The notes beneath the pieces were generated by a model, which worked only from the letters and a program-made list of their open reading frames with translations, had not been told where the DNA came from and made no database searches. DNA of 13,905 nucleotides, taken from the NCBI GenBank assembly GCA_034722055.1, contig JAYENL010000047.1, positions 1-13,905 on the forward strand, given 5' to 3'. Source of the stretch: Armatimonadota bacterium (lineage in GTDB: Bacteria > Armatimonadota > Zipacnadia > Zipacnadales > UBA5352). The first letter of the stretch is position 1. Each line of letters starts with the position of its first letter. Position numbers and translations under genes: made by a program. This document shows, one piece after another, positions 1 to 13,905 of this stretch.

Positions 1-542
1 ACTTCGCGCGCTCCTGAGGAGCGCCCTCAGGCGGCCCCTCCACGGCCAACAGCCCTCCGCTTGAGACCGAAGGTCTCCAAAGGTAAGGCCGTATGGAGGG
101 GCCGGACCACTGTCCGGCCCGCCGTTCCTTACCTTTACGCACATCGTGGCGAGTGGCGATTCGCTGTCTGCCGTCCGGAGGGGCCGTCTGAGGCTCCAGT
201 TCGCTGCAGCCGAAGCCGGCCCGGCCGTTGGCCGTCCGGGCCGCCGATTGCGTCACTTCGCCCCCAGCGGGCCGACTTCGCGCGCTCCTGAGGAGCGCCC
301 TCAGGCGGCCCCTCCACGGCCAACAGTCCTCCGCTTGAGACCGAAGGTCTCCAAAGGTAAGGCCGTATGGAGGGGCCGGACCACTGTCCGGCCCGCCGTT
401 CCTTACCTTTACGCACATCGTGGCGAGTGGCGATTCGCTGGCTGCCGTCCGGAGGGGCCGCCTGAGGCTCCAGCGTTGTTTGCTGCAGCCGAAGCCGGCC
501 CGGCCGTTGGCCGTCCAGGCCGCCGATTGCGTCACTTCGCCC
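1..542. repeat. Two-copy tandem repeat (period 274 bp) built of GGAG-footed REP-like hairpins; BIME-like, probably continues left of the window
   Basis: 1-263 aligns with 275-542 with about five substitutions and one 5-nt indel. Each unit contains several palindromes (GAGACC-GAA-GGTCTC, GGGCCGGAC-CACT-GTCCGGCCC, AAAGGTAAGG...CCTTACCTTT). The right end overlaps the stop codon of the 532-2598 gene. Confidence 0.92.
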
Positions 543-2598
543 GCCGCCGCGTGAGCGTCACGTCATCGAACCACGCCTCCCCGACGCCATTGATCCCCAG
601 GCGCACGGCCACCTGCGCCACGTCCTGGCGCGTGATGACCGTCCGCACCGTCAGCTTCTCCCAGCCGTCGGTGGCCGCGACGCGCCCCACCTCCACGTCC
701 AGCGGGCTCCAGCTCTCCGCGGCCGCGCCCTCGGCGTCGAAGCCCAGGATCTCCAGCACCGCCCCCCGCTCGGTCTTCTGCAGGTCCTCCTCGATGCGCA
801 CCCAGGCCGTGGCCTCCAGCGCGTCCCAGTGCTGCGCCGGCACCAGCGCGCTGCGCGCATCCGCGGTCACCCAGTCGTACTCCTCGCCCTGGTAGATGGA
901 GGGGCTCTCGGAGGTGAACTGGAGCGCCCTCTCGCCGGTGCGCGCGTCGCCCACGAGGCCCCGCTGGCCGGCCTGTTCGTGCGCCGCCGGCAGGTCCGGC
1001 CAGCCAACCACCTCGCCGTCCGCCGTCTCCTCGAAGGACGGGTTCGCCAGCAGGTTCGGCGAGGGCTTCGCCTTCGCCAGCTCCTGCACAAGCGGGTAGT
1101 AGCGCTCCGCCAGGTAGAAGTTGGGCAGCACCTCCGCATCCCGCACGAAGGGGCTGGTGTTCATTCGCTGCCAGTGTTCGTATGTCGCGTGCCGCAGGGT
1201 CCTGGATGCCGTCCGCGCCGCCTGAAAGGCAGCGGCGAACCGTGCCTGCTCGATGTGCTCGCGCGCCAGCGCGACGTCGCGCCCGGCATCATCCACGGCC
1301 GCCCGCAGATCCCCCGCATGCGGGTAGCCAGCGGCCTCCAGGGCACTGAGTACGCGCTCGACCTTGTCGCGGTGCGCCCCCGCGGCCTGCGTCGCGAACT
1401 GCGCCGCATCCACCCGGAGCTCGTCCATCTTCCCCTTGGCGTCGGCGACCAGCGCCTCGTCATCCGTGAGCAGCAGCAGCCCGGTCATGTCCACCCGTCC
1501 CGTGCGCAGGGTCGTGCCCTCGGCGCGCCCCGTGATATCCACCACGCCTCGATCCAGCGACAGCTCGTACACCCGCTCGCCCTCTCGCAGCGCCCGTTCC
1601 AGGTCCACGGTGGCGCCTTCGACCATGGCGGCGTCCACATGATACTGGCTGTCGTCGGTGATGACCGCCAGCAGCACCAGCGTCCCGCCCGGGAACCGCA
1701 CCGGCCAGGCGTGCAGCGTCGGCTCGGAGGTCGCCAGCTCCTCGCCCACCGTGCCCTGGGCCAGCCACGGGCCGATGACCTCCAGCTCGCAGCCCACCAG
1801 TGCCGCCTCGGCGTAGCGGTCCACCCCGTGATACTCCTCGGTGAAGTAGCGGTTCAGGAAGTACATGATCCCCCTGCAGCCCGCCGCCATCGCCGAGTAG
1901 GCCACCATCCGCACGTTCGAGCCGTCCGGGTACAACGACGGGCACCACTTCACCGACGGGTCCAGATACCGCTGCGTGTACCAGATCTGCACGTGCGCCT
2001 GGGCCCAGGTCCACAGGTATGTCTCGGGCCCCACGATGCTGTGCCGCTCCCGCAGCCGGCTCTGGTAATCCAGCAGCGTCGGCTCCTTCAGCAGCGGGTA
2101 GTGATAGGCGCAGAACATCTCGTCGAACCACTGGTACTGGTCCCAGTTGTGGATGACATCCAGCATGATCGGCCGGTCGTACCGGTCTCGCTCTCGAATC
2201 CACTCGAACGCGTAGCGCACCTGTTCCACGTGCTCGCCGCGAAGGTCGTCGCCGATGTTCCACGCCAGCAGGTTCGGGTGATCCCGCACCGCCAGCACGT
2301 GCTCCTCGTGCCTGTCGGACCACCCTGGCGCGTGGGGGTAGCTGACGATCATGAAGTCATGCTCCGCGGCATCGTCCAGCAGGTCCGGCACCGGCACCAT
2401 GCCGCTGTGCACGCAGTTGAAGTGGTGCCGCGTCATGGACTCCACCGACTCGATCACGCCCCAGCAGCCGTAGGGGAAGAACGGCTCCCCATCCACGGAG
2501 AGCCGGTTGTCCTCCAGCTCCACCCGGGGCATCTGCTGCGCCGCGCATGGAAGCGCCGTCACCACGAACAGCAGAATCGCCGCCGCTCTCATCCACAT
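532..2598 (-). CDS. Secreted glycoside-hydrolase-like (GH-A-like TIM barrel) protein with C-terminal carbohydrate-binding (CBM4/9-like) domain, ~688 aa
   Basis: Long ORF with high GC3. Signal peptide (MWMRAAAILLFVVTALPCAA), 'LSVDGEPFFPYG', 'HPNLLAWNIGDD' strand-4 motif, C-terminal 'NLLANPSFEE...AWFDDVTL' CBM signature. Start moved from 2619 to ATG 2598 because AGAGGAGG lies 8 nt upstream of it. Confidence 0.8.
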   Translation of the reverse strand: MWMRAAAILLFVVTALPCAAQQMPRVELEDNRLSVDGEPFFPYGCWGVIESVESMTRHHFNCVHSGMVPVPDLLDDAAEHDFMIVSYPHAPGWSDRHEEHVLAVRDHPNLLAWNIGDDLRGEHVEQVRYAFEWIRERDRYDRPIMLDVIHNWDQYQWFDEMFCAYHYPLLKEPTLLDYQSRLRERHSIVGPETYLWTWAQAHVQIWYTQRYLDPSVKWCPSLYPDGSNVRMVAYSAMAAGCRGIMYFLNRYFTEEYHGVDRYAEAALVGCELEVIGPWLAQGTVGEELATSEPTLHAWPVRFPGGTLVLLAVITDDSQYHVDAAMVEGATVDLERALREGERVYELSLDRGVVDITGRAEGTTLRTGRVDMTGLLLLTDDEALVADAKGKMDELRVDAAQFATQAAGAHRDKVERVLSALEAAGYPHAGDLRAAVDDAGRDVALAREHIEQARFAAAFQAARTASRTLRHATYEHWQRMNTSPFVRDAEVLPNFYLAERYYPLVQELAKAKPSPNLLANPSFEETADGEVVGWPDLPAAHEQAGQRGLVGDARTGERALQFTSESPSIYQGEEYDWVTADARSALVPAQHWDALEATAWVRIEEDLQKTERGAVLEILGFDAEGAAAESWSPLDVEVGRVAATDGWEKLTVRTVITRQDVAQVAVRLGINGVGEAWFDDVTLTRRRAK

Positions 2599-3067
2599 AT
2601 CGCAGGCCTCCTCTGTCATGGCGTGAACAGGCTCGTCTCCGCGAATGAGCCGAAGATCCCGCGCCGGCTCGGGTCCGGGGAGCTCGCCGCCCCCACCGAC
2701 GCCCGGGCAAGGACACTGCCGCCCACTGTATGCAGACCGTCAGCGCCCGGGACGCCCCAGCGAGCAGCCGCGATCCACTGGTGCGAGCGACCCCGCACGG
2801 CGGGCACGCCCGGCTGCCAAGGTCTTGGCTGCACCCTCAGGAGCGGTTCCAGACCTGGCGGAGTCCACCTTCCACCTGCACGTGGTTGCAGCGGGCGGGT
2901 CCGTCCTCAGATTGCCGGCTGCGGTCGGGGGCGGGCCGCAGGCCCGGAGTCCTTGCTCCACCGCACGGAGGTCAGACGCGCCTATGGCCGACGCGCGCTG
3001 AAAGGCCCACATTCGGACCAACCACGGTGCCCGGCGTGGCGTACTCCCGAAACCCGGGCGAGGGCTG

Positions 3068-3586
3068 CTATTGCCTCAGCCACTCATTCACCTGTTGGTA
3101 CGCCCGCCGGCCCTCAGCCATGACCCGGCCATCGGCGTCGTAGATAACGAAGTGGGGGATGCTGTGCAGCGAGTACTTCCGCGCCACCGGCGACTGCCAG
3201 TCAATGCCGCTCACTCCGGGCCGGTTGATGTCCACCTTCACCACGGCGATGTCGTCGCGCCTGGCCGCCAGCTCCTCGAGCTTCGGGGATATCACCCGGC
3301 ACGGCGGACAGTAGTCGCTGTAGAAGTCGAAGATCGTGATCTTGCCGGCGACCACATGATCCTCCAGACTGACCTCCTTGCCGTAGCTGATGGTCTTGCC
3401 TGTCGGAGTCGGGTCCTGCGCAGTGGGCCTGGCGGGCTCCCGGATGGGCGCTGGACTCTCCCCGGCGGGCGGCGGGTCCTGACTGGCTCTCCCGCAGCCC
3501 GTCAGCACCAGCGGTGGCACCATCGCGACCACTGCCATCATCATGAGCGTCCGCCGGACACGAGCGGTTTCGCTGGCCTTGGGCAT
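3068..3586 (-). CDS. Thioredoxin-family lipoprotein (CPPC active site), 172 aa
   Basis: 'ITIFDFYSDYCPPCRVISPKLEELA', 'VVKVDI' and cis-Pro motif 'SIPHFVIYD'. Lipobox LTGC followed by a Pro-rich linker. GGAGG 8 nt upstream of the ATG. Confidence 0.9.
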   Translation of the reverse strand: MPKASETARVRRTLMMMAVVAMVPPLVLTGCGRASQDPPPAGESPAPIREPARPTAQDPTPTGKTISYGKEVSLEDHVVAGKITIFDFYSDYCPPCRVISPKLEELAARRDDIAVVKVDINRPGVSGIDWQSPVARKYSLHSIPHFVIYDADGRVMAEGRRAYQQVNEWLRQ

Positions 3587-3794
3587 TGCACTGACCTCCC
3601 TGTCCGAGTCTGCTCGCTGTACCGACCGTGCGGCTGCGCCGAGACCTCATTCGAGTCTGGCGACTGAGCGCTATCATCCCTGCCTTGGCCTCAGGCGGCC
3701 AGGTCCTGCAGCTAGTGCTCACTTGCGCAATTCCGCGTACTTTGACGACGGGCACAGTCGCCGCTTGATTGCCTCAAAAACCCACCGTGTCCGG

Positions 3795-4046
3795 TGGAGG
3801 GGCCGCCGGGCGCGCAGCGCCCGGTGAGGCCTGTGACTGAGACTTCGTAGAAGTCTCCCAGCGAATAGGCCTCAGGTTCCACCCCGGCCCGGTGGATAGC
3901 TCTACCCAGAGGCTAAACGGCGCGCAGGCGGGGGCGCCTGCGGGAGACCTTCGGTCTCAAACGAGTGGGCCGGGGTGGAACCTGCGCGGTCAGTCGCTAC
4001 CGCTCCTGCTCGCGCCCCGCTCGCTTCGCTCGCGGCGGCCCCTCCA
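3795..4046. repeat. Inverted pair of GGAG-footed REP-like elements (REPIN/MITE-like), same family as 1-542
   Basis: 13-bp terminal IR TGGAGGGGCCGCC (3795-3807 / 4034-4046) and 18-bp inner IR (3873-3890 / 3967-3984). 3943-3960 is the exact reverse complement of 61-78 and 335-352. Confidence 0.8.
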
Positions 4047-4104
4047 TGGCGGGCACCCGTCTTGTCGTGACGTAGGAAGGTACGGGAACTTCTGCGACTT
4101 AGCA

Positions 4105-7100
4105 CTAATGCTCCGCGTCGGTCTGTTCCACCTCTTCCCTGACGAGCCGCTGGTAGCCGAAGCCGACGGCGATCAGGGCGATGCCGATGCCCAGCAGGGC
4201 CAGGATGCGGTAGAAGATGTCCAGTGCGCGCATGTCGAGGAGGAAGACCTTCAGCACCGTGATGGCCAGCAGGCCCATGCCAATCCATCTGATGGGCGCG
4301 TTGCTGCGCAGGAGCCCGAAGGTGATCAGGGCTGCACCGTAGACCGTCCAGACCGCCGACAGGGCGTACTGCTGGGGGTCGCCCTCCGCCCCCAGTGTCC
4401 AGCCCGCGAAGTGCCACGCCTCCCAGGTCAGCACCCACCACAGTAGGACGCTGGCGAGGTAGGGGATCGCGCCGGCCACGATCTCTTCCTCCTCCCCCAC
4501 GTGCTCCAGGTTCCGCCGGTACCAGTGTGACGCCAGGTAGAGCATGGCGGTGATGACCAGCAGCGGGAAGGCGTAGTGGTTGGCCAGCAGTCGGTAGGTC
4601 TCCGGCGTCAGGCCCGGGTCAACGAGAAAGACCTTGCCGGCGACCAGGCCCAGCGCCGCTAACCCCACCCAGCGCAGCGCGGCGCTGTTCCGCTGCAGGC
4701 CCATGACCAGCATGACCGAGCCGAAGATCACCCAGATCATGGACAGGGCCATCTGCTGACCGGCGCGGCCGGCGTCCGTCTGCCAGCCCAGGTAGAGCCA
4801 GGCCTCCGAGCTGGCGACCCACAGCAGCAGGCCGGTCGCCACCACCACGACCGCCGTGCCCACATCGCGCTCCGAGTCGCTGACATGGTCCGTTCTCGCG
4901 TACCATGCTCCCAGCGCATAGAGCAGGGCGGCTATCGCCAGCAGCGGCGCTGCGTGGGCATTGATCAGCGGCAGGTAGGTCTCCAGCGGCGGCTCCCCGG
5001 CGAAGATCTTCAGGACCGTCACACCCCACAGTCCCAGGGCCGCCCAGCGCAGCGCGACAATGTTGCGGGCGGTCCCGATGACCATCAGCGCGGCTCCGAA
5101 GATCACCCACACGCCTGACAGCGCGAAGTGCTGGGCCGCGCGGTCCATGCCGAGCTGCCAGCCGACATAGCACCACGCCTCGGAGCTGCAGATCCACACC
5201 AGCAGCACGGTGGCGAAGGCCAGCAGGCCGGTGGCGTTGGTGCGCTCACCCTCCTGAAGCTGCTCGCGGAAGCGCAAGTAGAGGGAGCCGCAGATGTACA
5301 TCGCCGCGATCACCGCCAGCATCGACAGGGCGCGGCTGTTGGCCACAACCTGGTAGCCGTCTGGGGAGATGCTGCTATCGACCACCATCGCCCTCACCAG
5401 CGGCAGGGCCAGGACGACCAACGCCCCACTCCGGAGCGCCGGGGCACGGAAGGCGAAGCCCAGGCCCATCAGCAGCACGACCTCGGCGGCCCACAGCGCG
5501 CTGACCGGCCAGCCGCGCGCCAGCAGGGGCACGGCCAGCGTCAGGAAGACGACGCTGAGGCCCACGTGGAGGGGGCCGAACCAGGTCTGCGCGGGGCGGC
5601 GGCGGATGGCCGTCACGCCCGCCGTGGCGTAGAGGGCGACCAGACCCAGGGCGAGCAGACCGCTCGCGCCCTCGATCCTGTGCAGATCGTAGAAGCCCGC
5701 GCCGAAGAACGCCGCGGCGTTGGCACACGCCAGGGCGGCGTCTCCGACCCCGGCCCCCGCTGCTCGCACGCCGTGCCGTCTCCACGCGGTGACGACGAAC
5801 GCCAGCAGGTACAGCGGCGTGAAGCTGAGGTGTGCCGGGTCCGGCGCAGCGTGGCCGCTGACGTTGCGCCATGCCACATAGAGGGCCCAGGTGCCGATCA
5901 GCGTCACCCATTCCAGCCCGTGCCATCCCCGCCACTCGATGGCGATGAGGGTGGCGATGGCAGCAAGCGCCAGATATGTCGGGATCACCAGCTCCGGTGC
6001 CGCCGGGCCCATCATGCCTGTCAGCGGCAGAGCCGCGAACGCGCCCACCACGGCGATGATGCCGAGCGTGCGGTTGTCTCGATAGGCGCTCACGCCAAGC
6101 GCCCCGGCGCCGAGCAGGGCCAGGTACATCAGCGACAGGTGGCTGACGGCGCCCCCGGTCACCCCATCATGGAGCAGGCCGGTGGCGAGGAAGGCCGCGA
6201 TCCCACCGATCGCCGAGAAGGCGCTCCAGGGGAAGAGCGCACCGACCACCAGCACGCTGGCCGCCAGCAGCAGCAGATACGCAAACATCGCCACACCGGC
6301 GACGGGCACCGGCGATGCCCAGGCCAGGATCGCCGCGGCAGCATATGCAGTGCCGACCGCAGAGAGGGCCAGCGGCTCGGCATCGGGCCGGCGGCCGGCG
6401 GACACCGCCAGCGTGCCGCCCACCGACATAGCCGCATACAGCAGCATCCAGGTGCCCATCTCCTCCACGCCGGCCCGCCGGATCAGCGGCAGCAGCAGGA
6501 GGAAGCCCGCGAAGGAGCCCAGCGCGCCCAGCCACCGCATGCTGCGCCAGTCCTGCATGTGCCCCAGCCACAGGGCGGCGCCCGACAGCGCCAGCAGGTA
6601 CATGTAGGGCACGAAGGGGGACCCTCTGGAGGCGGTCAGCAGCACCACCGCCGTCACCAGATACCCGGCCACGGCGCCGATGGCCCCGAAGTTCTCGCCC
6701 TCCCGACCCTTGCGGCTGGCCGACACCCACAGCATCCCGGCGGTCACCAGCATCAGGTAGGTCAGCGTCCAGCCCAGCGCGCCGCCGCTGACCCGGAAGA
6801 TGTAGGCGCCGCTGGAGTAGGCGCCAAGCAGCGCCAGGCCCGTGAAGGTCGGCCAGGCGTAGCGGTGACCCACGACGAAGACGGCCACGCTCAGCAGCGC
6901 CAGATACGCAAACAGGGGGCCGGGACCGGCCGACTCACCACCGCCCCCCTCGCCGCCACCGATGAGCAGGGGTACGGCGTACCCGGTGATCCAGGCCAGC
7001 GTCGCCACCGTCTCGGACTCGTGGCGGACGGCCTGCACGGCGGCGGCCACCGTGACGAGCGCCATCGCCGGGAAGGTCGCCGCCGAGCCCATGAATCCGT

Positions 7101-7922
7101 AGAGGTGCTGGCCCTCCCACAGGGTCAGATACAGCAGCGCGGCGCCGCCGCCGGTAAGTGCCTGGCTCTGGATCTCGTAGCCCCGCCGGTGGGCGTACTC
7201 CGCACCGCCCATGACCGCAATGCCCGCCACGTGCCCGCGCCGAGCAGCATCTGGGGCGTGATCCAGCCCTCGCTGTAGGCGTACTTGAGCAGGAAGGCCA
7301 CCGCCAGCAGCACCGCCACCATCCCGATCCGCGTCAGCCAGGCGGTGCCGATGGTGACCTCGATGCCGCGACGCGGTCGCTGGGCCGGCGTAGGCTCCTC
7401 CGATGGTGCGCCCGGTTCCGCCGCGGCTCCCTCCGGCTCAGGCTGCGCGGGCTCCTCGGTCGGTGGTGGCGGCTCCGCCGCGGCTTCCTCGGACTCGCGA
7501 GGCGTGGGCTCGCGCCCCGCAGGTTCCTCCGGCTCGGATGGAGGCGGTGGCTCCCCGGTGACGTCACGTGGCGGCCCAGGTGCGGCCGGCGGGGCCACGA
7601 CCTGCTTTGAGTCCAACCTGGCCCCACACTCCATGCACCGCTGGTCGGAGGCGAATACCCGCGCACCGCACACCGGGCACGTAGACTCGCCTCCGGGCGC
7701 GCTCACGCCCCCCGTTCGGTCTTCCCGAGGAGGCGGTGGTGGGGGCGGTGGGGGCAGTACTGTCGCCCCCAGGGGAACCGCCAGCGTCCCGGACAGCTCC
7801 TCGATGCTCGCCTCGGTCCAGCCGCCCTCGCGAAGTGACTGCGTGATCTGTTCGTCGGAGATGCCGCGCTCACGTGCACGCCCCACGAACTCCCGACCTG
7901 CAGCAAGGCGGTCCTCGTCCAT
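4105..7922 (-). pseudogene. DUF2339-type predicted multi-pass membrane protein with N-terminal zinc-ribbon/Pro-rich region; 1-nt frameshift at ~7231 (true lesion or sequencing error); ~1272 aa if restored
   Basis: The upstream frame ends in the DUF2339 N-terminal motif 'IEVTIGTAWLTRIGMVAVLLAVAFLLKYAYSEGWITP'. The downstream frame continues 'AGIAVMGGAEYAHRRGY...LTGGGAALLY' and ends with 'LKVFLLDMRALDIFYRILALLGIGIALIAVGFGYQR'. ATG 7922 is preceded by GAAAGGGG. CPVC...CMEC zinc ribbon near the N-terminus. Confidence 0.82.
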
Positions 7923-8096
7923 GGCAGACCCCTTTCGTCGCGGCACGTCGCCTCTTCAACCTGATTCTCCCCGTTGCGCTCTCCATCATGATGGGCCGAT
8001 GGCATCAATCACGGAGACCACGAGGCCCACTTCCCTGGGACCTCGCCAGCGGCGAGGCGCCCGCGTTCGGCGGCCCGGGGCGCTCCTGGCCTGAAG

Positions 8097-8340
8097 GCGG
8101 AGGCAGTGCAGGCGCTGATGGCCGGCCTCGACGGAGAAGATAGTGGCGTGGGGGAGGCCCCGGCCACGGCACCGGGCGCGGCCCGCAGCGGTGGACTTCG
8201 ACTCGTTCGACCCCGACAGAGGTGTCAGGAAAGCGGCGGCGCTCAGCCTGCCGGCACTCGGCGACGACGCCGTGGCGAACGTGCTCCGGGGGGAGGCCCA
8301 GCGCGGAAGCGAGTCCGCCGCTGAGGCCCTCGAGGCATCG
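8097..8340 (+). pseudogene. Degraded fragment resembling HEAT/PBS-lyase repeats
   Basis: One frame reads 'AEAVQALMAGLDGEDSGVGEAPATAPG', the next frame 'DPDRGVRKAAALSLPALGDDAVANVL'. Both resemble the HEAT_2 pattern AV.AL...L.D.D..VR.AAA.AL..LG. No clean start or continuous frame. Confidence 0.4.
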
Positions 8341-8403
8341 GTCAGGTGGGGGCGATGCTCGCGCCCCCGGGATGGTGACCGGATGGTTCGCGCCGGGGAG
8401 GCC

Positions 8404-11400
8404 TCAGCGTTCCTCCCGCGCCCAGATCTCGATCTCCGGGATGATCAGCCGCCGGCCCTCGTCGCGGGCGCCCACCTCCAGCCGCAGGTGCCGGACTGCC
8501 GGCGCGGCCTCGTCGAGATCTATCGTCACCGCCGGGAAGTCTGTGCGATCGGTCACCGAGCGCTTCTGGATCGCCCCCAGCTCCACCCACTCATCGCCCA
8601 CGCGGCCGACCACGCGCGTGTCCGGAAGCTGACCGTTGAACAGCAGCCAGATGCGGTCGAGGGGGTACTGCGCGCCCAGATCCATGGTGATCATCACCGG
8701 GTCGATGGTCTTCCAGCCGACGGCGAAGGCCCGCAGGTGCGCGGTATAGTCCTCGTCCTCATGCTCCACCGCCGACCGCCGGTCCATCAGATCGCCGTCT
8801 GAGAACGGGATGTCCTCCGCCCCACCCTCATCGGGACCCAGGTCGGGCGGGACGGAGTAGCTGTAGCGACCCTCGACCGCAAGGTCTGCCATCGGGATCA
8901 TCTCGTTGGTGTCCCACACGACGTAGTTGTTCGTCAGGCATCTGCCCGGTGGCGCCGCGATGCTGGCCTCAGGCACCGGCGGGAAGGTGAAGCGCCAGAT
9001 CGGCAGGTCCACGCCCTCGTCAAAAAAGGCGTGCAGATCGCGCCAGAAGCGCTGCCAGGCGCCGGACTGAAGCGCCTTCTGGTGCATGGGGTCGAAGCCG
9101 AAGCCATAGACCTCGCCCTCGCCCAGCGGCCGGATGGCGGCCGCCACCGAGCCGTCCTCGTAAGTCAGCAGCGCCCGGTCGCCGTCCGCAAGCTGCAGGG
9201 CGGCCCCCTGCCCGAATACCGGCGCCGCGTCCCCGGCAGGCACCGGTGAGACGCTCTCGCGATCCGCCGGCTCCGACATGCTGGGGAACAGCCGCGCCCG
9301 CAGGTCGTCCATGCGCGATCCGTCCAGGTGCCAGGTGAAGGCCGCCGGCTCAGTCACCACCAACGTACCGCCCCCCTCCACCCAGGTGACCAGTGCCTCA
9401 ACGATCCCCCGCCGCTGGTACTGGGTCTTGGGGACATAGATCACGGAGAAGTCCGACAGGTCGATCTCGTCACGTCCGATCTGGTTGTCGCTGATGACGG
9501 TGAACCAGCCGCCCGCGTAGGGGCCCAGCAGGTTGAACATCCAGCGGTACTGGTCACTTCCCTGCCGGCCGCCGAGGAACTGTGCCATGTAGGCATCGTT
9601 GGAGAAGAGGATCGCCGCCCGCGAGTCAGGCAGGCTCGGTCGGTCGATCTGGCGGCTGTGATCCAGCACACCCATGACAGTGCGCCACCGCGGCCAGGAG
9701 CCGAAGCGGTCGAGGACCATATCGTGCGGCGTGCGCCCTCCAGCCGTGTCCGGCATGTAGAGGTGGAAGCCCTCGCCCCCGCCCCGGTAGACCTCGCTCA
9801 TCAGCTCCCGCACCTCGTCCGGGCGGAAGCTGTTGGCGTAGTTCTCCACGTGCACGCACGGCATGGTGGCGGCGCCGGAGAGGTCACGCAGGGTCTTCGT
9901 GATCCAGGCCACGTCCTGCTCGTGCGGCCCGCGGGGGTAGCATTGGTGGGTGACGATCTCGCACCAGCGGCCGTAGCCGGAGTAGTCGAAGGGCTGCACC
10001 TGCGCCACCGGATCGGGGCCGATGACCAGCAGGTCCTCGTCAACGGATTTCACGGTCTCATAGATGCGCCTCTGGAAGTCGGCGAAGCGGTGGTTGTACC
10101 AGCGGCGGTAGGCGATCCAGCGGAAGGGGTTGGGGTCGTCAAGGGACTCGGGGATGCCGAACGTCCCGTAGCCGAACTCCTCGCGCACCTTCCGATCGAC
10201 CTCGTCCATGAACGGGTAGGGATCGTCGTCGTAGTGCAGCGCCAGGCCGCGCTGGAAGTCGCTGTCCTGCACCTCGTCGCCCGTGCACACGCCCCACAGG
10301 TGATCGCCCCATTCGGTGGCGTAGTCACGCACGCGCTGCAGGTAGACCTGCTGGTTGTCCGGGTCCATCAGGTAGGCGGATCCGCCCTCGGTTGTGGGTT
10401 TGCCCTCGGCGTGCGCCCGACGGCTCCCCATGTGGATCATCGTCACGTCGTGCCGCGCGCAGTACTTGCGCGCCCCGAAGTTATCTCCCCCGAGCATGGT
10501 ACCGCCGTCGAAGTAGTGCAGCTTCCGGGCCGCGGCCTTGCGGTAGGTGTCCTCCAGAGTCCATGGCTGTGCGTGCTTGAGGCAGAAGGGCGCAATCTCG
10601 TAGGTTATCAGCTCATGCCCCCACATGAGCACGCCCTCGGCGCCCATCCCCGGCCCCTCCTCTCCGAACAGCTCCGCGAACACCGGGTCCTCGGTCTGCC
10701 ACACCCGGGGGAACTCCGTCTCCACGACCGGGACGGACGCCTGGTAGATGGTCTCGCCTCCCGCAATCATCTCAAAGCTCACCATCTCCCCCTCGGCCCC
10801 GGTGACCGCGTAGGGAAGCTCCACGACCTCGCCCGGGTCGGCGGTCGCGCTGTCGGTGAAGCTCTCGTCGCCGCCGGCTGCGACCGTCACGGAGGCCCTC
10901 ACGGCTGCCTCGTCGAGCCGCGCGCGCAGCGTGTTCGCCCCGTCAGCGTTGCCGGCGCGCGCAGCCATCCCCCGGCTGAGCACCCGCAGGCCCGTCTCGT
11001 GTGGGAAGAGCATGTCGCCGAAGGCCTCCGGCTGGGCGAAGCGCCCCTGCACGCCCGCCCATGAGCTGTACTCGCCACCGCCCGGGCGCCCGCGGCACAC
11101 GTTCAGGCCCCAGACCTCTCCCGCAACCGGCTGCACGCCGATGTTCGCCCAGGAGACGGCGGCCTCGATGCTCCAGCCCTCCTCCGCGTGCCGCCAGGCC
11201 GCCTGCGCGTCCGGCTCGATGTCGATGGTGGTGATGGCCGCGCCGCGCACCACGCCGAACTGCGCCGCCATCGCCCCCGCCGCGGTCACCCCCAGGTGCA
11301 GGAACGTCCGCTGATCGTGGTGGAAGTCCACGAAGACCTCCATCACGTCGTCGCGCCATACGCGCTTGCTTTCGGCCTCCACGGCCTCGGTTCGAAGCTG

Positions 11401-12276
11401 ATCCATGTTCGGCTCATCGGCGACGGCCGCCAGGTAAAGCGCCTGCGAGTCCCACGTCAGACGTACCTGCGTCTGCGCCTGTGCCGGGGCGTTGCCCCGG
11501 TTGAGCATGAAGTCGCGCAGGACCGGCGCCGCCTCCCAGACGGGATCGTCCAGCCGCCCGTCGAGGCGCGGTGCCTGGTCGGCGCGCACCATGGTGACCG
11601 AGGGCGGGCCGGGAGGCGTCTGGGCCTCCACTGCGCGCCCCTGCGCCATGTCGTAGAGGAAGAACCTGTTTGCGGACGGGTAGCGGTCGTTCGTCCACGT
11701 GTTGGGGCCCTCGATGCCATCGCGGATGCTCATCTGCACCTGCACGCCGATCACCTCAGTCGAGATGTTCAGCGGCTCGATGGGCACCCGGATCTCGATC
11801 TCCCGCCCGTCGGCGGAGTAGTGTCCCCGCGGCCCGTCGCTCCAGTCCGGGTGCCCCTCGTACCACAGGTAGGTCTCCCTGCCGTCCTCGGTGTAGCGGA
11901 CTACGTAGGTGTGGTTGAGGCCGCCGTCGGGGCGGGCGATCTGATTGGTGTAGTAGTCGGCGCGCGAGTCCCCGTCAACGTCCAGGACGATATAGCGCAT
12001 GTTCGCCCAGTAGCTGTCCTGCCACGCGTCCTGGGTCTCATCGGCAAAGGGGCGCTCGCGCGCGAAGCGGATGCGGAAGAACAGGTGCCGACCGTCGTGG
12101 GCGATCCAGAGGCGCTCCACCACGCCGAAGGGCGTCTCGGCGGCCTCGGCGACCTCAGCGGGCATCTCTATCGCCGCAGCGCCATCCCAGTCGGACATGT
12201 CGCCGTCGATGGTGATCGCGGCTGCAGGCCCGGCAGCGACGAGCGCGAGCAGCGTGGCGGCAGTCAGCGGGCGCAT
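8404..12276 (-). CDS. Large secreted modular carbohydrate-active protein: two DOMON/CBM9-like domains, GH42-like TIM barrel, GATase1-like (beta-galactosidase trimerisation-like) domain, C-terminal discoidin-like domain; 1290 aa
   Basis: Signal peptide; 'ITIDGDMSDW'; 'APRLDGRLDDPVW...TQVRLTWDSQALYLA...VWRDDVMEVFVD...WGLNVCR'; 'CTGDEV' and 'VHVEN' as candidate catalytic glutamates; 'DLSDFSVIYVP...LVTWVEGGGTLVVT'; 'ITMDLGAQYPLDRI...IPEIEIW'. AAGGGA upstream of the ATG. Confidence 0.85.
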   Translation of the reverse strand: MRPLTAATLLALVAAGPAAAITIDGDMSDWDGAAAIEMPAEVAEAAETPFGVVERLWIAHDGRHLFFRIRFARERPFADETQDAWQDSYWANMRYIVLDVDGDSRADYYTNQIARPDGGLNHTYVVRYTEDGRETYLWYEGHPDWSDGPRGHYSADGREIEIRVPIEPLNISTEVIGVQVQMSIRDGIEGPNTWTNDRYPSANRFFLYDMAQGRAVEAQTPPGPPSVTMVRADQAPRLDGRLDDPVWEAAPVLRDFMLNRGNAPAQAQTQVRLTWDSQALYLAAVADEPNMDQLRTEAVEAESKRVWRDDVMEVFVDFHHDQRTFLHLGVTAAGAMAAQFGVVRGAAITTIDIEPDAQAAWRHAEEGWSIEAAVSWANIGVQPVAGEVWGLNVCRGRPGGGEYSSWAGVQGRFAQPEAFGDMLFPHETGLRVLSRGMAARAGNADGANTLRARLDEAAVRASVTVAAGGDESFTDSATADPGEVVELPYAVTGAEGEMVSFEMIAGGETIYQASVPVVETEFPRVWQTEDPVFAELFGEEGPGMGAEGVLMWGHELITYEIAPFCLKHAQPWTLEDTYRKAAARKLHYFDGGTMLGGDNFGARKYCARHDVTMIHMGSRRAHAEGKPTTEGGSAYLMDPDNQQVYLQRVRDYATEWGDHLWGVCTGDEVQDSDFQRGLALHYDDDPYPFMDEVDRKVREEFGYGTFGIPESLDDPNPFRWIAYRRWYNHRFADFQRRIYETVKSVDEDLLVIGPDPVAQVQPFDYSGYGRWCEIVTHQCYPRGPHEQDVAWITKTLRDLSGAATMPCVHVENYANSFRPDEVRELMSEVYRGGGEGFHLYMPDTAGGRTPHDMVLDRFGSWPRWRTVMGVLDHSRQIDRPSLPDSRAAILFSNDAYMAQFLGGRQGSDQYRWMFNLLGPYAGGWFTVISDNQIGRDEIDLSDFSVIYVPKTQYQRRGIVEALVTWVEGGGTLVVTEPAAFTWHLDGSRMDDLRARLFPSMSEPADRESVSPVPAGDAAPVFGQGAALQLADGDRALLTYEDGSVAAAIRPLGEGEVYGFGFDPMHQKALQSGAWQRFWRDLHAFFDEGVDLPIWRFTFPPVPEASIAAPPGRCLTNNYVVWDTNEMIPMADLAVEGRYSYSVPPDLGPDEGGAEDIPFSDGDLMDRRSAVEHEDEDYTAHLRAFAVGWKTIDPVMITMDLGAQYPLDRIWLLFNGQLPDTRVVGRVGDEWVELGAIQKRSVTDRTDFPAVTIDLDEAAPAVRHLRLEVGARDEGRRLIIPEIEIWAREER

Positions 12277-13080: not shown

Positions 13081-13086
13081 TATAAT
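13081..13086 (+). promoter_or_regulatory. -10 box of the rnpB promoter
   Basis: Perfect TATAAT ending 8 nt before the P1 helix. The -35 (TGGCGA, 13058-13063, 17-bp spacing) is weak. Confidence 0.75.
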
Positions 13087-13094
13087 GATGTACG

Positions 13095-13689
13095 CGGAGA
13101 GTGTGTCGGGTGGTCGCGGGCGGACCTGAGGGTCCGCCTGAGGAAAGTCCGAGCTCCACAGGGCAGAGCGCTGGGTAACACCCAGGCGGAGCGATCCGAC
13201 GGAAAGTGGCACAGAAACATACCGCCCGCGCTCTCTTCCACTGCAATCGCACGATCGCGGGATGGTGTCTGCCGGGCGCTGGCGGCACGGCTGCCGCTGA
13301 GGACGAGCGCGCCGCCGCGGTGAGCTGCTGGTCCGGGGCGCGGGGCCTGGCATGATGGCTGAGGGCCCTGCTGACTGGTAGTGTTGAGGGAGGAGCCGGT
13401 CGCGACGGACAGCTCTTGGTGCGGCGCGTTGAGGCCGGTGGGCGATGGTGGTGTGATGGCAGTGGAAGGGAGCGTGGGTAAGGGTGAAATGGTGGGGTAA
13501 GAGCCCACCAGCGGCATGGTGACATGTCGGCTGGCCAAACCCCGCTTGGAGCAAGCCCGAATAGGGGAGCGATGAGGTGGCCCGCTGAGCTCCCGGGTAG
13601 GGCGCGTTGAGGCGTCTGGCAACAGGCGTCCGAGCTGAATGACCACCAGCCTTCCAGGCACAGAACTCGGCTTACGGACACGCTCTCCG
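13095..13689 (+). ncRNA. rnpB: Bacterial RNase P RNA, type A, with greatly extended P12
   Basis: GAGGAAAGTCCGAGCTC (13140-13156) and ACAGAACTCGGCTTA (13660-13674) form P4 with a compensatory A-U pair. P1 CGGAGAGTGTGTC/GACACGCTCTCCG. P3, P8, P9 (GCGA loop), ACAGAAA..ACCGCC, GGTAAGGGTGAAA, P13 GGTAAGAG loop, P14, GGAGCAAG, L15 GGU, P18 (GCAA loop) and a short P19 all occur in canonical order. Confidence 0.98.
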
Positions 13690-13696
13690 TGACAGC

Positions 13697-13728
13697 CTCT
13701 CTGCCGAAGTGTGAACGACGGCGGGGAG
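13697..13728 (+). other. GC-rich stem-loop immediately 3' of rnpB (processing or termination signal candidate)
   Basis: CTCTCTGCCG (13697-13706) pairs with CGGCGGGGAG (13719-13728), 10 bp with two G-U pairs. No adjacent U tract. Confidence 0.35.
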
Positions 13729-13905
13729 AGAGCGGAATGTAAGCCTCCGAAAGGTTTCGTTCTTCGGTTCGACCCCAAAACAGAAGACTCTGCACGTCCT
13801 GAGCACGATCTCCGCGCTGCTGCTCGCCCGCGCAACAGAAAGGGTGTGCACAGAAGTGCAGGAGACTCTGACCACACTGGCTCAGGACTTCTTCGTGTAC
13901 CTGGA

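What the first reader, a model, noticed from the sequence alone, without database searches (positions are those of the whole stretch)
13224..13479. RNase P RNA with a giant (~256 nt) branched P12 domain
Seen: between ACAGAAACATACC and AAGGGTGAAA lie 256 nt. They fold by eye into a 21-bp uninterrupted basal helix (13224-13244/13459-13479), extended by 13246-13257/13446-13457 and 13266-13275/13435-13444. This leads to a junction with hairpin 13281-13298 and helices 13306-13315/13421-13430 and 13322-13327/13410-13415, ending in two apical hairpins (13342-13369, 13373-13401). Many pairs are G-U on the plus strand, as expected for selection on RNA structure rather than a DNA palindrome. Known: P12 is roughly 30 nt in E. 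coli, most type A RNAs are about 350-420 nt, and P12 tolerates length variation, with extended forms described in some lineages. Inference: this is an independently folded accessory domain on an intact ribozyme (protein scaffold, tertiary brace, excised intervening sequence or captured ncRNA).
Basis: partly seen in the sequence, partly recalled or inferred. Interest (0 to 1): 0.8.

Follow-up and report, generated by a model that had tools for sequence, protein, structure and literature searches.

The report
Giant P12 outgrowth of RNase P
The single gene for the tRNA-trimming ribozyme RNase P in this uncultured Armatimonadota bacterium has one outer helix (P12) lengthened from about 22 to 256 bases, and to nearly 500 in relatives; it is likely a tolerated, fast-changing outgrowth that a long conserved stem keeps apart from the intact enzyme.

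Summary
Confirmed. An intact type A RNase P RNA gene (RF00010, 13098-13690, 253 bits; only copy found in the genome) has a 256-nt P12 (Rfam consensus 22). Public-run contigs span it unchanged. Nearest relatives are Ca. Zipacnadia (Armatimonadota). In its family P12 spans 39-493 nt (11 measured; 264 here by that measure), giving genes up to about 870 nt; no other RF00010 match in three phylum samples (373 genomes) exceeded 550 nt. The 21-bp basal helix is shared and covaries (5 pairs change on both sides). The interior is not shared: no similarity to any relative, none even between two genomes 96.5% alike in RpoB, no common fold, no K-turn, no Rfam match, and only modest folding alone (z -1.7). 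It is not built from repeats or a mobile element. Best reading (0.6): a tolerated, fast-turnover expansion segment kept in the RNA and insulated by its stem. Main rival (0.2): RNase III excision, as with 23S IVSs. No RNA data for this organism. Long P12s are known (cyanobacteria, archaea), and this scan noted others in other phyla; the size and non-repeat build are new. New variant of a known kind; interest 0.42.

The parts
13081..13086 (+). TATAAT, likely -10 promoter element of rnpB
   Evidence: Sequence. A GGGGTATAMT motif stands at the same place just upstream of P1 in 5 of 5 relatives printed. The sigma-70 scan found no site because no -35 match.
13093..13691 (+). rnpB, type A RNase P RNA (about 595 nt; P1 = 13093-13107 with 13677-13691)
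   Evidence: RF00010 13098-13690, 252.8 bits; only match in the genome; P1 extent read from the sequence.
13140..13151 (+). 5' strand of P4 (conserved region I, GAGGAAAGTCCG)
   Evidence: CM alignment
13201..13223 (+). P11 and J11/12, conserved 5' anchor of P12
   Evidence: CM alignment; pattern match
13224..13244 (+). 5' arm of the 21-bp P12 basal helix
   Evidence: P 0.81-1.0; covariation in 6 sequences
13246..13256 (+). 5' arm of the helix extension (pairs with 13447-13457; one A-G and one G-G mismatch)
13259..13446 (+). variable interior of the P12 expansion (188 nt), no homologue found; holds an ambiguous region (13265-13298, 13435-13444) and one well-defined branched subdomain
13306..13430 (+). 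branched subdomain: stems 13306-13315/13421-13430, 13322-13326/13411-13415, 13331-13335/13406-13410, ending in a junction with two apical hairpins
   Evidence: pair probabilities
13340..13371 (+). apical hairpin 1
13373..13401 (+). apical hairpin 2
13459..13479 (+). 3' arm of the 21-bp P12 basal helix
13480..13510 (+). J12/13 (AAGGGTGAAA) and P13 with loop L13
   Evidence: CM alignment
13660..13675 (+). 3' strand of P4 (conserved region V, ACAGAACTCGGCTTAC)
   Evidence: CM alignment

Best explanation
This is an intact type A RNase P RNA whose helix P12 carries a 256-nt expansion segment that is likely kept in the mature RNA, likely near-neutral, and likely held apart from the enzyme by a long conserved basal stem. 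Shown: all core elements match the family model; the gene is single-copy, with RnpA present; the basal stem is shared and covaries; the interior folds on itself with many G-U pairs but has no counterpart in relatives. Inferred mechanism: P12 points away from the tRNA, and only its first pairs take part in the tertiary fold (established knowledge of type A RNase P; P12-type receptors in PMC6326782, passages). Any sequence added at its tip is therefore tolerated if it folds locally and cannot pair with the core. Selection acts on a long, stable closing stem (21 bp plus extensions) and on self-pairing (G>C and T>A skew, G-U pairs), not on the interior sequence. The interior then grows and is replaced by small insertions, deletions and substitutions faster than four-fold degenerate codon sites diverge. 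Helix growth is a trait of this lineage: P12 and other helices are long across the order, and the genome's 23S rRNA has a 100-nt insert.
For: Core intact; single rnpB; RnpA of normal size, 76 bits; no protein-only RNase P (PF08745) found in a 92.7% complete genome, so the gene is likely essential. P12 span (from ACAGAAA to GGGTGAAA) in 11 family members: 39, 51, 54, 54, 55, 57, 83, 131, 264, 448, 493; 367 in a metagenome locus: a graded series, not one inserted unit. Basal helix over 6 sequences: 95.2% of cells paired, 5 of 21 pairs changed on both sides, 0-2 of 500 shuffles as high, 32-54% when slid. Interior: window against 4 relatives, forward score no better than shuffles (199-279 of 300 as high); G010 against G012 no better (230 of 300) although RpoB is 96.5% identical in protein and 73.6% at four-fold sites. 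Consensus fold of the four largest P12s -50 kcal/mol against -158 to -292 singly. No K-turn in a probable stem in 6 of 6; no loop sequence shared between the large forms; no L7Ae-family gene found. P12 is sometimes dispensable in cyanobacteria (PMC2858038, passage).
Against: No RNA evidence for retention: the 4 RNA runs laid hold only other organisms' core pieces, nothing over 13242-13457 beyond trace depth. The genome encodes RNase III and the basal stem is a long, almost perfect duplex. Conservation reaches about 30 bp, more than L13 docking needs. A 17-nt motif just above the stem is nearly invariant in the 4 g5-type sequences (absent here), and one pair of interiors (G012 and L055) is homologous (score 54 against 25, 0 of 300). 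In sister families, 11 of 16 long P12s share a tip-loop motif (motif defined after seeing the data), so long P12s in this order can carry constrained elements. Strand asymmetry in z-score is absent in the two largest inserts. The covariation set is 6 related sequences chosen for a similar base.
Confidence: 0.6

Rival explanations
1. IVS-like excision: RNase III cuts both strands of the long basal duplex, removes the interior, and leaves a two-piece RNase P RNA held together by the P12 stub and the core, as with intervening sequences of 23S rRNA.
For: A conserved, almost perfect 21+7 bp stem with a hypervariable interior. rnc is present (TIGR02191, 238.9 bits). The same genome's 23S rRNA carries a 100-nt stem-loop insert absent from relative G003, at the place I recall as helix 45. 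IVSs are 100-200-nt stems excised by RNase III without effect on function (PMC8708148, passages).
Against: No similarity between the P12 insert and the 23S insert (29 of 300 shuffles as high). Lengths form a continuum from 39 to 493 nt. Other Armatimonadota carry 35-40 bp near-perfect P12 hairpins, so long stems are common there whatever their fate. No paper in the library holds RNase P RNA + intervening sequence + RNase III + fragmented.
Confidence: 0.2
2. Functional accessory domain: the expansion binds a protein or braces the fold, as P12 extensions of archaeal and eukaryotic RNase P RNAs bind protein subunits.
For: Archaeal and eukaryotic expansions at the tip of P12 give protein-binding sites (PMC12974513, passage). 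Well-defined branched subdomain 13306-13430. Near-invariant 17-nt motif in g5 relatives and a shared tip loop in sister families.
Against: Interior not conserved in sequence or fold; no K-turn and no shared loops; no L7Ae-family gene found; RnpA has no extra domain; family members with 39-57-nt P12 exist; the window lacks both the g5 motif and the sister-family tip loop.
Confidence: 0.13
3. Captured repeat, MITE or ncRNA lodged in the P12 tip.
For: Repeat-built P12s exist: STRR in cyanobacteria (title seen in the reference list of PMC2858038), heptamer arrays in other Armatimonadota.
Against: No Rfam match to E 10; no tandem repeat; no internal direct repeat, nhmmer finds only the locus itself, and the best blastn hits in the genome (E 0.008) are no better than those of 30 shuffles; in 67 genomes of the order only 23-57-nt hits at E >= 9e-5; the G010 interior likewise has no second copy in 5 genomes.
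Confidence: 0.05
4. Assembly artefact or a dead gene copy.
For: The genome is a 330-contig assembly; the supporting runs may be its source sample.
Against: Contigs of two runs span the insert with 0 differences and a third covers 13357-13686 with 3. Relatives from other assemblies have homologous stems with large interiors. Core, promoter motif and RnpA are intact; single copy.
Confidence: 0.02

Closest known systems
Bacterial type A RNase P RNA (Rfam RF00010)
   Same: All core helices and conserved regions; 252.8 bits against a cut-off of 100.
   Different: P12 of 256 nt against 22 in the consensus; gene about 595 nt, relatives to about 870 nt, against 250-550 nt for most RNase P RNAs (PMC2996960, passage).
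STRR-extended P12 of heterocyst-forming cyanobacteria (Vioque 1997, NAR 25:3471; title seen in a reference list, paper not held; that the repeats lie in P12 is recalled)
   Same: Tolerated lengthening of a peripheral helix of bacterial RNase P RNA.
   Different: No tandem or dispersed repeat here; branched, G-U-rich fold rather than a repeat hairpin.
Archaeal/eukaryotic P12 expansions ES5.1/ES5.2 (P12.1/P12.2) (PMC12974513, passages and section 12)
   Same: Growth at the tip of P12, far from the tRNA interface.
   Different: Those bind RNase P proteins (through K-turns and L7Ae, recalled); no K-turn or L7Ae gene found here; that paper's section on bacterial expansions names none at P12.
Intervening sequences of bacterial 23S rRNA (PMC8708148, passages)
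   Same: 100-200+ nt stem-loop at a variable helix of a stable RNA, long closing stem, RNase III in the genome.
   Different: Host is RNase P RNA; excision untested; no sequence link to the genome's own 23S insert.
Candida glabrata RNase P RNA, 1149 nt (PMC3001073, passage)
   Same: Very large RNase P RNA.
   Different: Eukaryotic, protein-rich enzyme; the primary paper was not held, so its insertion sites were not checked.

Membership tests
Type A bacterial RNase P RNA (RF00010) | Score over the gathering threshold across the whole model | tested here: met
   252.8 bits, model 1-367
Type A bacterial RNase P RNA (RF00010) | Conserved regions and P4 pseudoknot, P6, P13/P14, P16/P17, P18, L15 GGU | tested here: met
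   All aligned; GNRA loops in L9, L14 and L18 and GGU in L15 read from the sequence
Type A bacterial RNase P RNA (RF00010) | RnpA protein partner in the genome | tested here: met
   PF00825 76.2 bits, 131-aa open frame
Type A bacterial RNase P RNA (RF00010) | Expression and pre-tRNA cleavage | not testable with these tools
   No RNA run holds this organism's gene
Repeat- or MITE-built P12 extension (STRR type) | Insert made of tandem units, or of a repeat found elsewhere in the genome | tested here: not met
RNase III-excised intervening sequence | Long closing stem at a variable helix; RNase III encoded | tested here: met
RNase III-excised intervening sequence | Excision from the mature RNA without religation | not testable with these tools
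   Joints that skip the insert carry other letters and come from other organisms' genes
Archaeal-type protein-binding P12 expansion | K-turn in P12 and an L7Ae-family protein | tested here: not met
   No K-turn pattern in a probable stem in 6 of 6 inserts (my own simple rule); PF01248 not found in a 92.7% complete genome
Captured known ncRNA | Match to an Rfam family | tested here: not met
   0 matches to E 10

The most novel reading that the evidence does not exclude
The long conserved stem is an RNase III site, so this family makes a naturally two-piece bacterial RNase P RNA and releases a fast-evolving structured RNA of 100-450 nt from its middle: an intervening-sequence system in a ribozyme. 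If it is not cut, these are intact bacterial RNase P RNAs of up to about 870 nt, larger than any bacterial one I met in the samples or papers.
Probability: 0.2. Interest if true: 0.8.

Novelty: new variant of a known kind. Interest (0 to 1): 0.42.

Why it matters
It sets a new upper range for the size of a bacterial RNase P RNA in the samples searched (595 nt here, 716-870 nt in relatives) and gives a natural graded series (P12 of 39 to 493 nt on a core about 83-94% identical) for testing how much extra RNA a ribozyme tolerates, and how expansion segments begin in bacteria. It also has a practical side: the 493-nt form splits the Rfam match in two, so such genes are mis-annotated. If RNase III cuts the stem, it would be a fragmented bacterial RNase P RNA, which I found in no paper searched.

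Tried and rejected
Rfam scan of the insert alone: nothing. Repeat origin: tandem repeats, self-blast, blastn and nhmmer against the genome, blastn against 67 genomes of the order: nothing above chance. One of 20 interior comparisons, window against the reverse complement of G012, scored high (1 of 300 shuffles); taken as chance among GC-rich hairpins. An AUGAUG...CUGA pair in apical hairpin 1 looks like boxes C and D but cannot form a K-turn (1-nt loop, 5-nt bulge). Joints skipping the insert in DNA and RNA contigs have other letters between the sides and low identity: other organisms' short P12, no evidence of excision. RNA runs X9, X12, X13, X14 do not cover the insert: no evidence either way. 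Apparent introns in relatives (spans of 1.3-1.5 kb) were mis-pairings of my motif search with separate partial hits. The 350 extra bases in G003's 23S rRNA are N gaps. 23S rRNA was found in only 1 of 5 relatives, so a link between P12 and 23S growth could not be tested. The same-genus genome G001 and 5 other family genomes gave no rnpB (G017 not re-searched), so no close homologue of the interior is at hand. The first RpoB tree held a wrong row and was rebuilt; it leaves the g1-g5 relation unresolved, so one or two origins of the giant form cannot be told. Overlapping ORFs on the minus strand have no Pfam match. Vioque 1997 and Kachouri 2005 are not held; the supplement of PMC12974513, which covers 337 bacterial RNAs and may show long P12s, could not be read.

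Full report
Observation. The window holds one Rfam match: RNase P class A, 13098-13690 on +, 252.8 bits, whole model. Between ACAGAAACATACC (13211-13223) and AAGGGTGAAA (13480) lie 256 nt, where the consensus has 22. The basal helix has 21 of 21 pairs with probabilities 0.81-1.0; the extension, the inner stems and both apical hairpins are well supported; the helix 13266-13275/13435-13444 and hairpin 13281-13298 have P of about 0.4 and compete with another hairpin. The segment folds at -158.3 kcal/mol, z -6.7, the other strand at -110.9, z -4.7; 18 of 97 pairs are G-U on + and 3 of 79 on -. None of 150 GC-matched genomic 256-mers is as stable. The inner 188 nt alone reach only z -1.7. Contigs of two public DNA runs span the insert with no difference; these brine-metagenome runs are from one study and may be the source sample.

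The gene looks functional. It is the only rnpB found in the 92.7% complete genome. RnpA is present and of ordinary size. No protein-only RNase P domain was found. A TATAAT lies just upstream, and the same GGGGTATAMT motif precedes the gene in 5 of 5 relatives printed. tmRNA (349 nt) and large SRP RNA (265 nt) are of normal size; the 23S rRNA is 3123 nt and has a 100-nt stem-loop absent from one relative.

Lineage and size range. A pattern for the P12 base returned 8 genome records, 4 of them rnpB genes titled Ca. Zipacnadia or Armatimonadia, so the organism is inferred to belong to Armatimonadota, near Zipacnadia. Of 18 family genomes, 11 gave a measurable P12, one is cut by a contig end and 6 gave no gene. 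Measured from ACAGAAA to GGGTGAAA (264 here): 39, 51, 54, 54, 55, 57, 83, 131, 264, 448, 493; two identical metagenome loci give 367. Whole genes reach about 716, 834 and 867 nt; the 493-nt form is split into two Rfam hits. In the other families of the order, 29 copies measured span 23-145 nt, 16 of them 80 nt or more, and some genes reach 561-640 nt through growth in several helices. In an even sample of the phylum (151 genomes, 140 over the cut-off, 8 without a match) the longest other match is 507 nt; follow-up of long or weak hits gave P12 up to 157 nt, several built of heptamer repeats, and no hidden giant among those fetched. In two other phyla the longest matches were 550 nt of 101 genomes (P12 at most 119 in those fetched) and 527 nt of 121 (not fetched). 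Only three phyla were sampled; unchecked notes of this scan report long P12s elsewhere (233 nt in a planctomycete; a 731-nt gene in a CPR bacterium).

What is conserved. In 6 sequences with a similar base the 21-bp helix is paired in 95.2% of cells, with 5 pairs changed on both sides (0-2 of 500 shuffles; 32-54% paired when slid). The set is small, related, and chosen for that similarity. The interior is not conserved: the window's matches none of 4 relatives, and G010 and G012 do not match each other, though their RpoB is 96.5% identical and four-fold sites 73.6%. One pair (G012, L055) is homologous (0 of 300). The consensus fold of the four largest forms keeps little beyond the base (-50 kcal/mol). 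No K-turn in a probable stem and no shared loop was seen, no L7Ae gene, no Rfam family. The insert is not made of repeats and has no second copy in the genome or the order. Against pure neutrality: a 17-nt motif above the stem is nearly invariant in the four g5-type sequences, and 11 of 16 long P12s of sister families share a tip loop (motif defined from the data). The window has neither.

Mechanism. Shown: intact core, conserved and covarying stem, self-folding but unshared interior, graded lengths. Inferred: P12 projects away from the tRNA and only its base is used by the fold (established knowledge; P12-type receptors in PMC6326782, passages; P12 sometimes dispensable, PMC2858038, passage). 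Extra sequence at the tip is therefore tolerated when a long stem closes it off, selection keeps it paired, and the interior drifts. I put this at 0.6, with the insert retained. RNase III excision (0.2) fits the long stem, the rnc gene and the 23S insert, and matches the definition of IVSs (PMC8708148, passages), but has no direct support. A protein-binding or bracing domain (0.13) has precedent in archaeal and eukaryotic P12 expansions (PMC12974513, passages) but fails the tests I could run. RNA runs gave no information.

Comparison with print. Most RNase P RNAs are 250-550 nt (PMC2996960, passage); the largest described is the 1149-nt C. glabrata RNA (PMC3001073, passage); CPR genes show extended or missing helices (bioRxiv 2020.03.05.979740, section 9); STRR repeats occur in cyanobacterial rnpB (reference title only); a retained insertion nearly doubles an archaeal 5S rRNA (PMC7530397, search listing). 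Searches listed no paper on giant P12 in Armatimonadota or on non-repeat bacterial P12 of this size; the library lacks most subscription papers, two older papers and the supplement of PMC12974513.

Verdict. Real, a member of type A RNase P RNA, with an extreme, non-repeat P12 expansion that is a family trait. New variant of a known kind; interest 0.42.

Noticed in passing
L040:622-1114 (G010), L037:570-1017 (G012), L055:347-713: Relatives with P12 spans of 493, 448 and 367 nt; genes of about 867, 834 and 716 nt. These are more extreme than the window.
   Followed up: yes
alignment A1, columns about 32-49: A 17-nt motif just above the basal stem is nearly invariant in four g5-type P12s although its predicted pairing differs; a candidate protein or tertiary contact. 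Absent from the window.
   Followed up: partly
L004, L006, L012, L022, L028, L029, L032, L034, L035, L036, L038: In four sister families the long P12 mostly forms a three-way junction, and the second hairpin ends in a shared loop (CUCAARAG-like; 11 of 16 long P12s, 0 of 13 short).
   Followed up: partly
L058:739-887 and 2504-2640 (G195); L062-L065; L044; L046; L017:2130-2205; L041:1307-1441: Short (75-210 nt) RNase P-like partial matches apart from the true rnpB, often several per genome; in G195 they flank a gene that reads like hemA and keep pieces like the P2 and P4 ends. Possibly a family of mini-paralogues or a repeat derived from rnpB.
   Followed up: no
L071 (G118), L069 (G190), L061 (G067), L067 (G147), L075 (G156): Other Armatimonadota have P12 built of short tandem repeats or 35-40 bp near-perfect hairpins, like the cyanobacterial STRR case.
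   Followed up: partly
L121 (G000:C316), about 1275-1375 of the 23S gene: 100-nt stem-loop insert in the genome's 23S rRNA at the site I recall as helix 45, a classical IVS site.
   Followed up: partly
L059 (G114:C107): 5' part of an rnpB that breaks off at the start of P12 into unrelated sequence and a gene start; perhaps an integration site or a duplicate.
   Followed up: no
L128 (G279), L135 (G273): RNase P RNAs of another phylum with a reduced S-domain: L128 seems to lack the P10-P14 region, L135 lacks P13.
   Followed up: no
window 532-12276 (-): Neighbours are ordinary: CBM9-domain protein (8404-12276), DUF2339 membrane protein whose N-terminal part lies in an overlapping upstream frame (7125-7946 and 4105-7230; possible frameshift), thioredoxin-like protein (3068-3586).
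   Followed up: no
window 13696-13733: GC-rich hairpin just downstream of rnpB without a U tract; the terminator scan found none.
   Followed up: no
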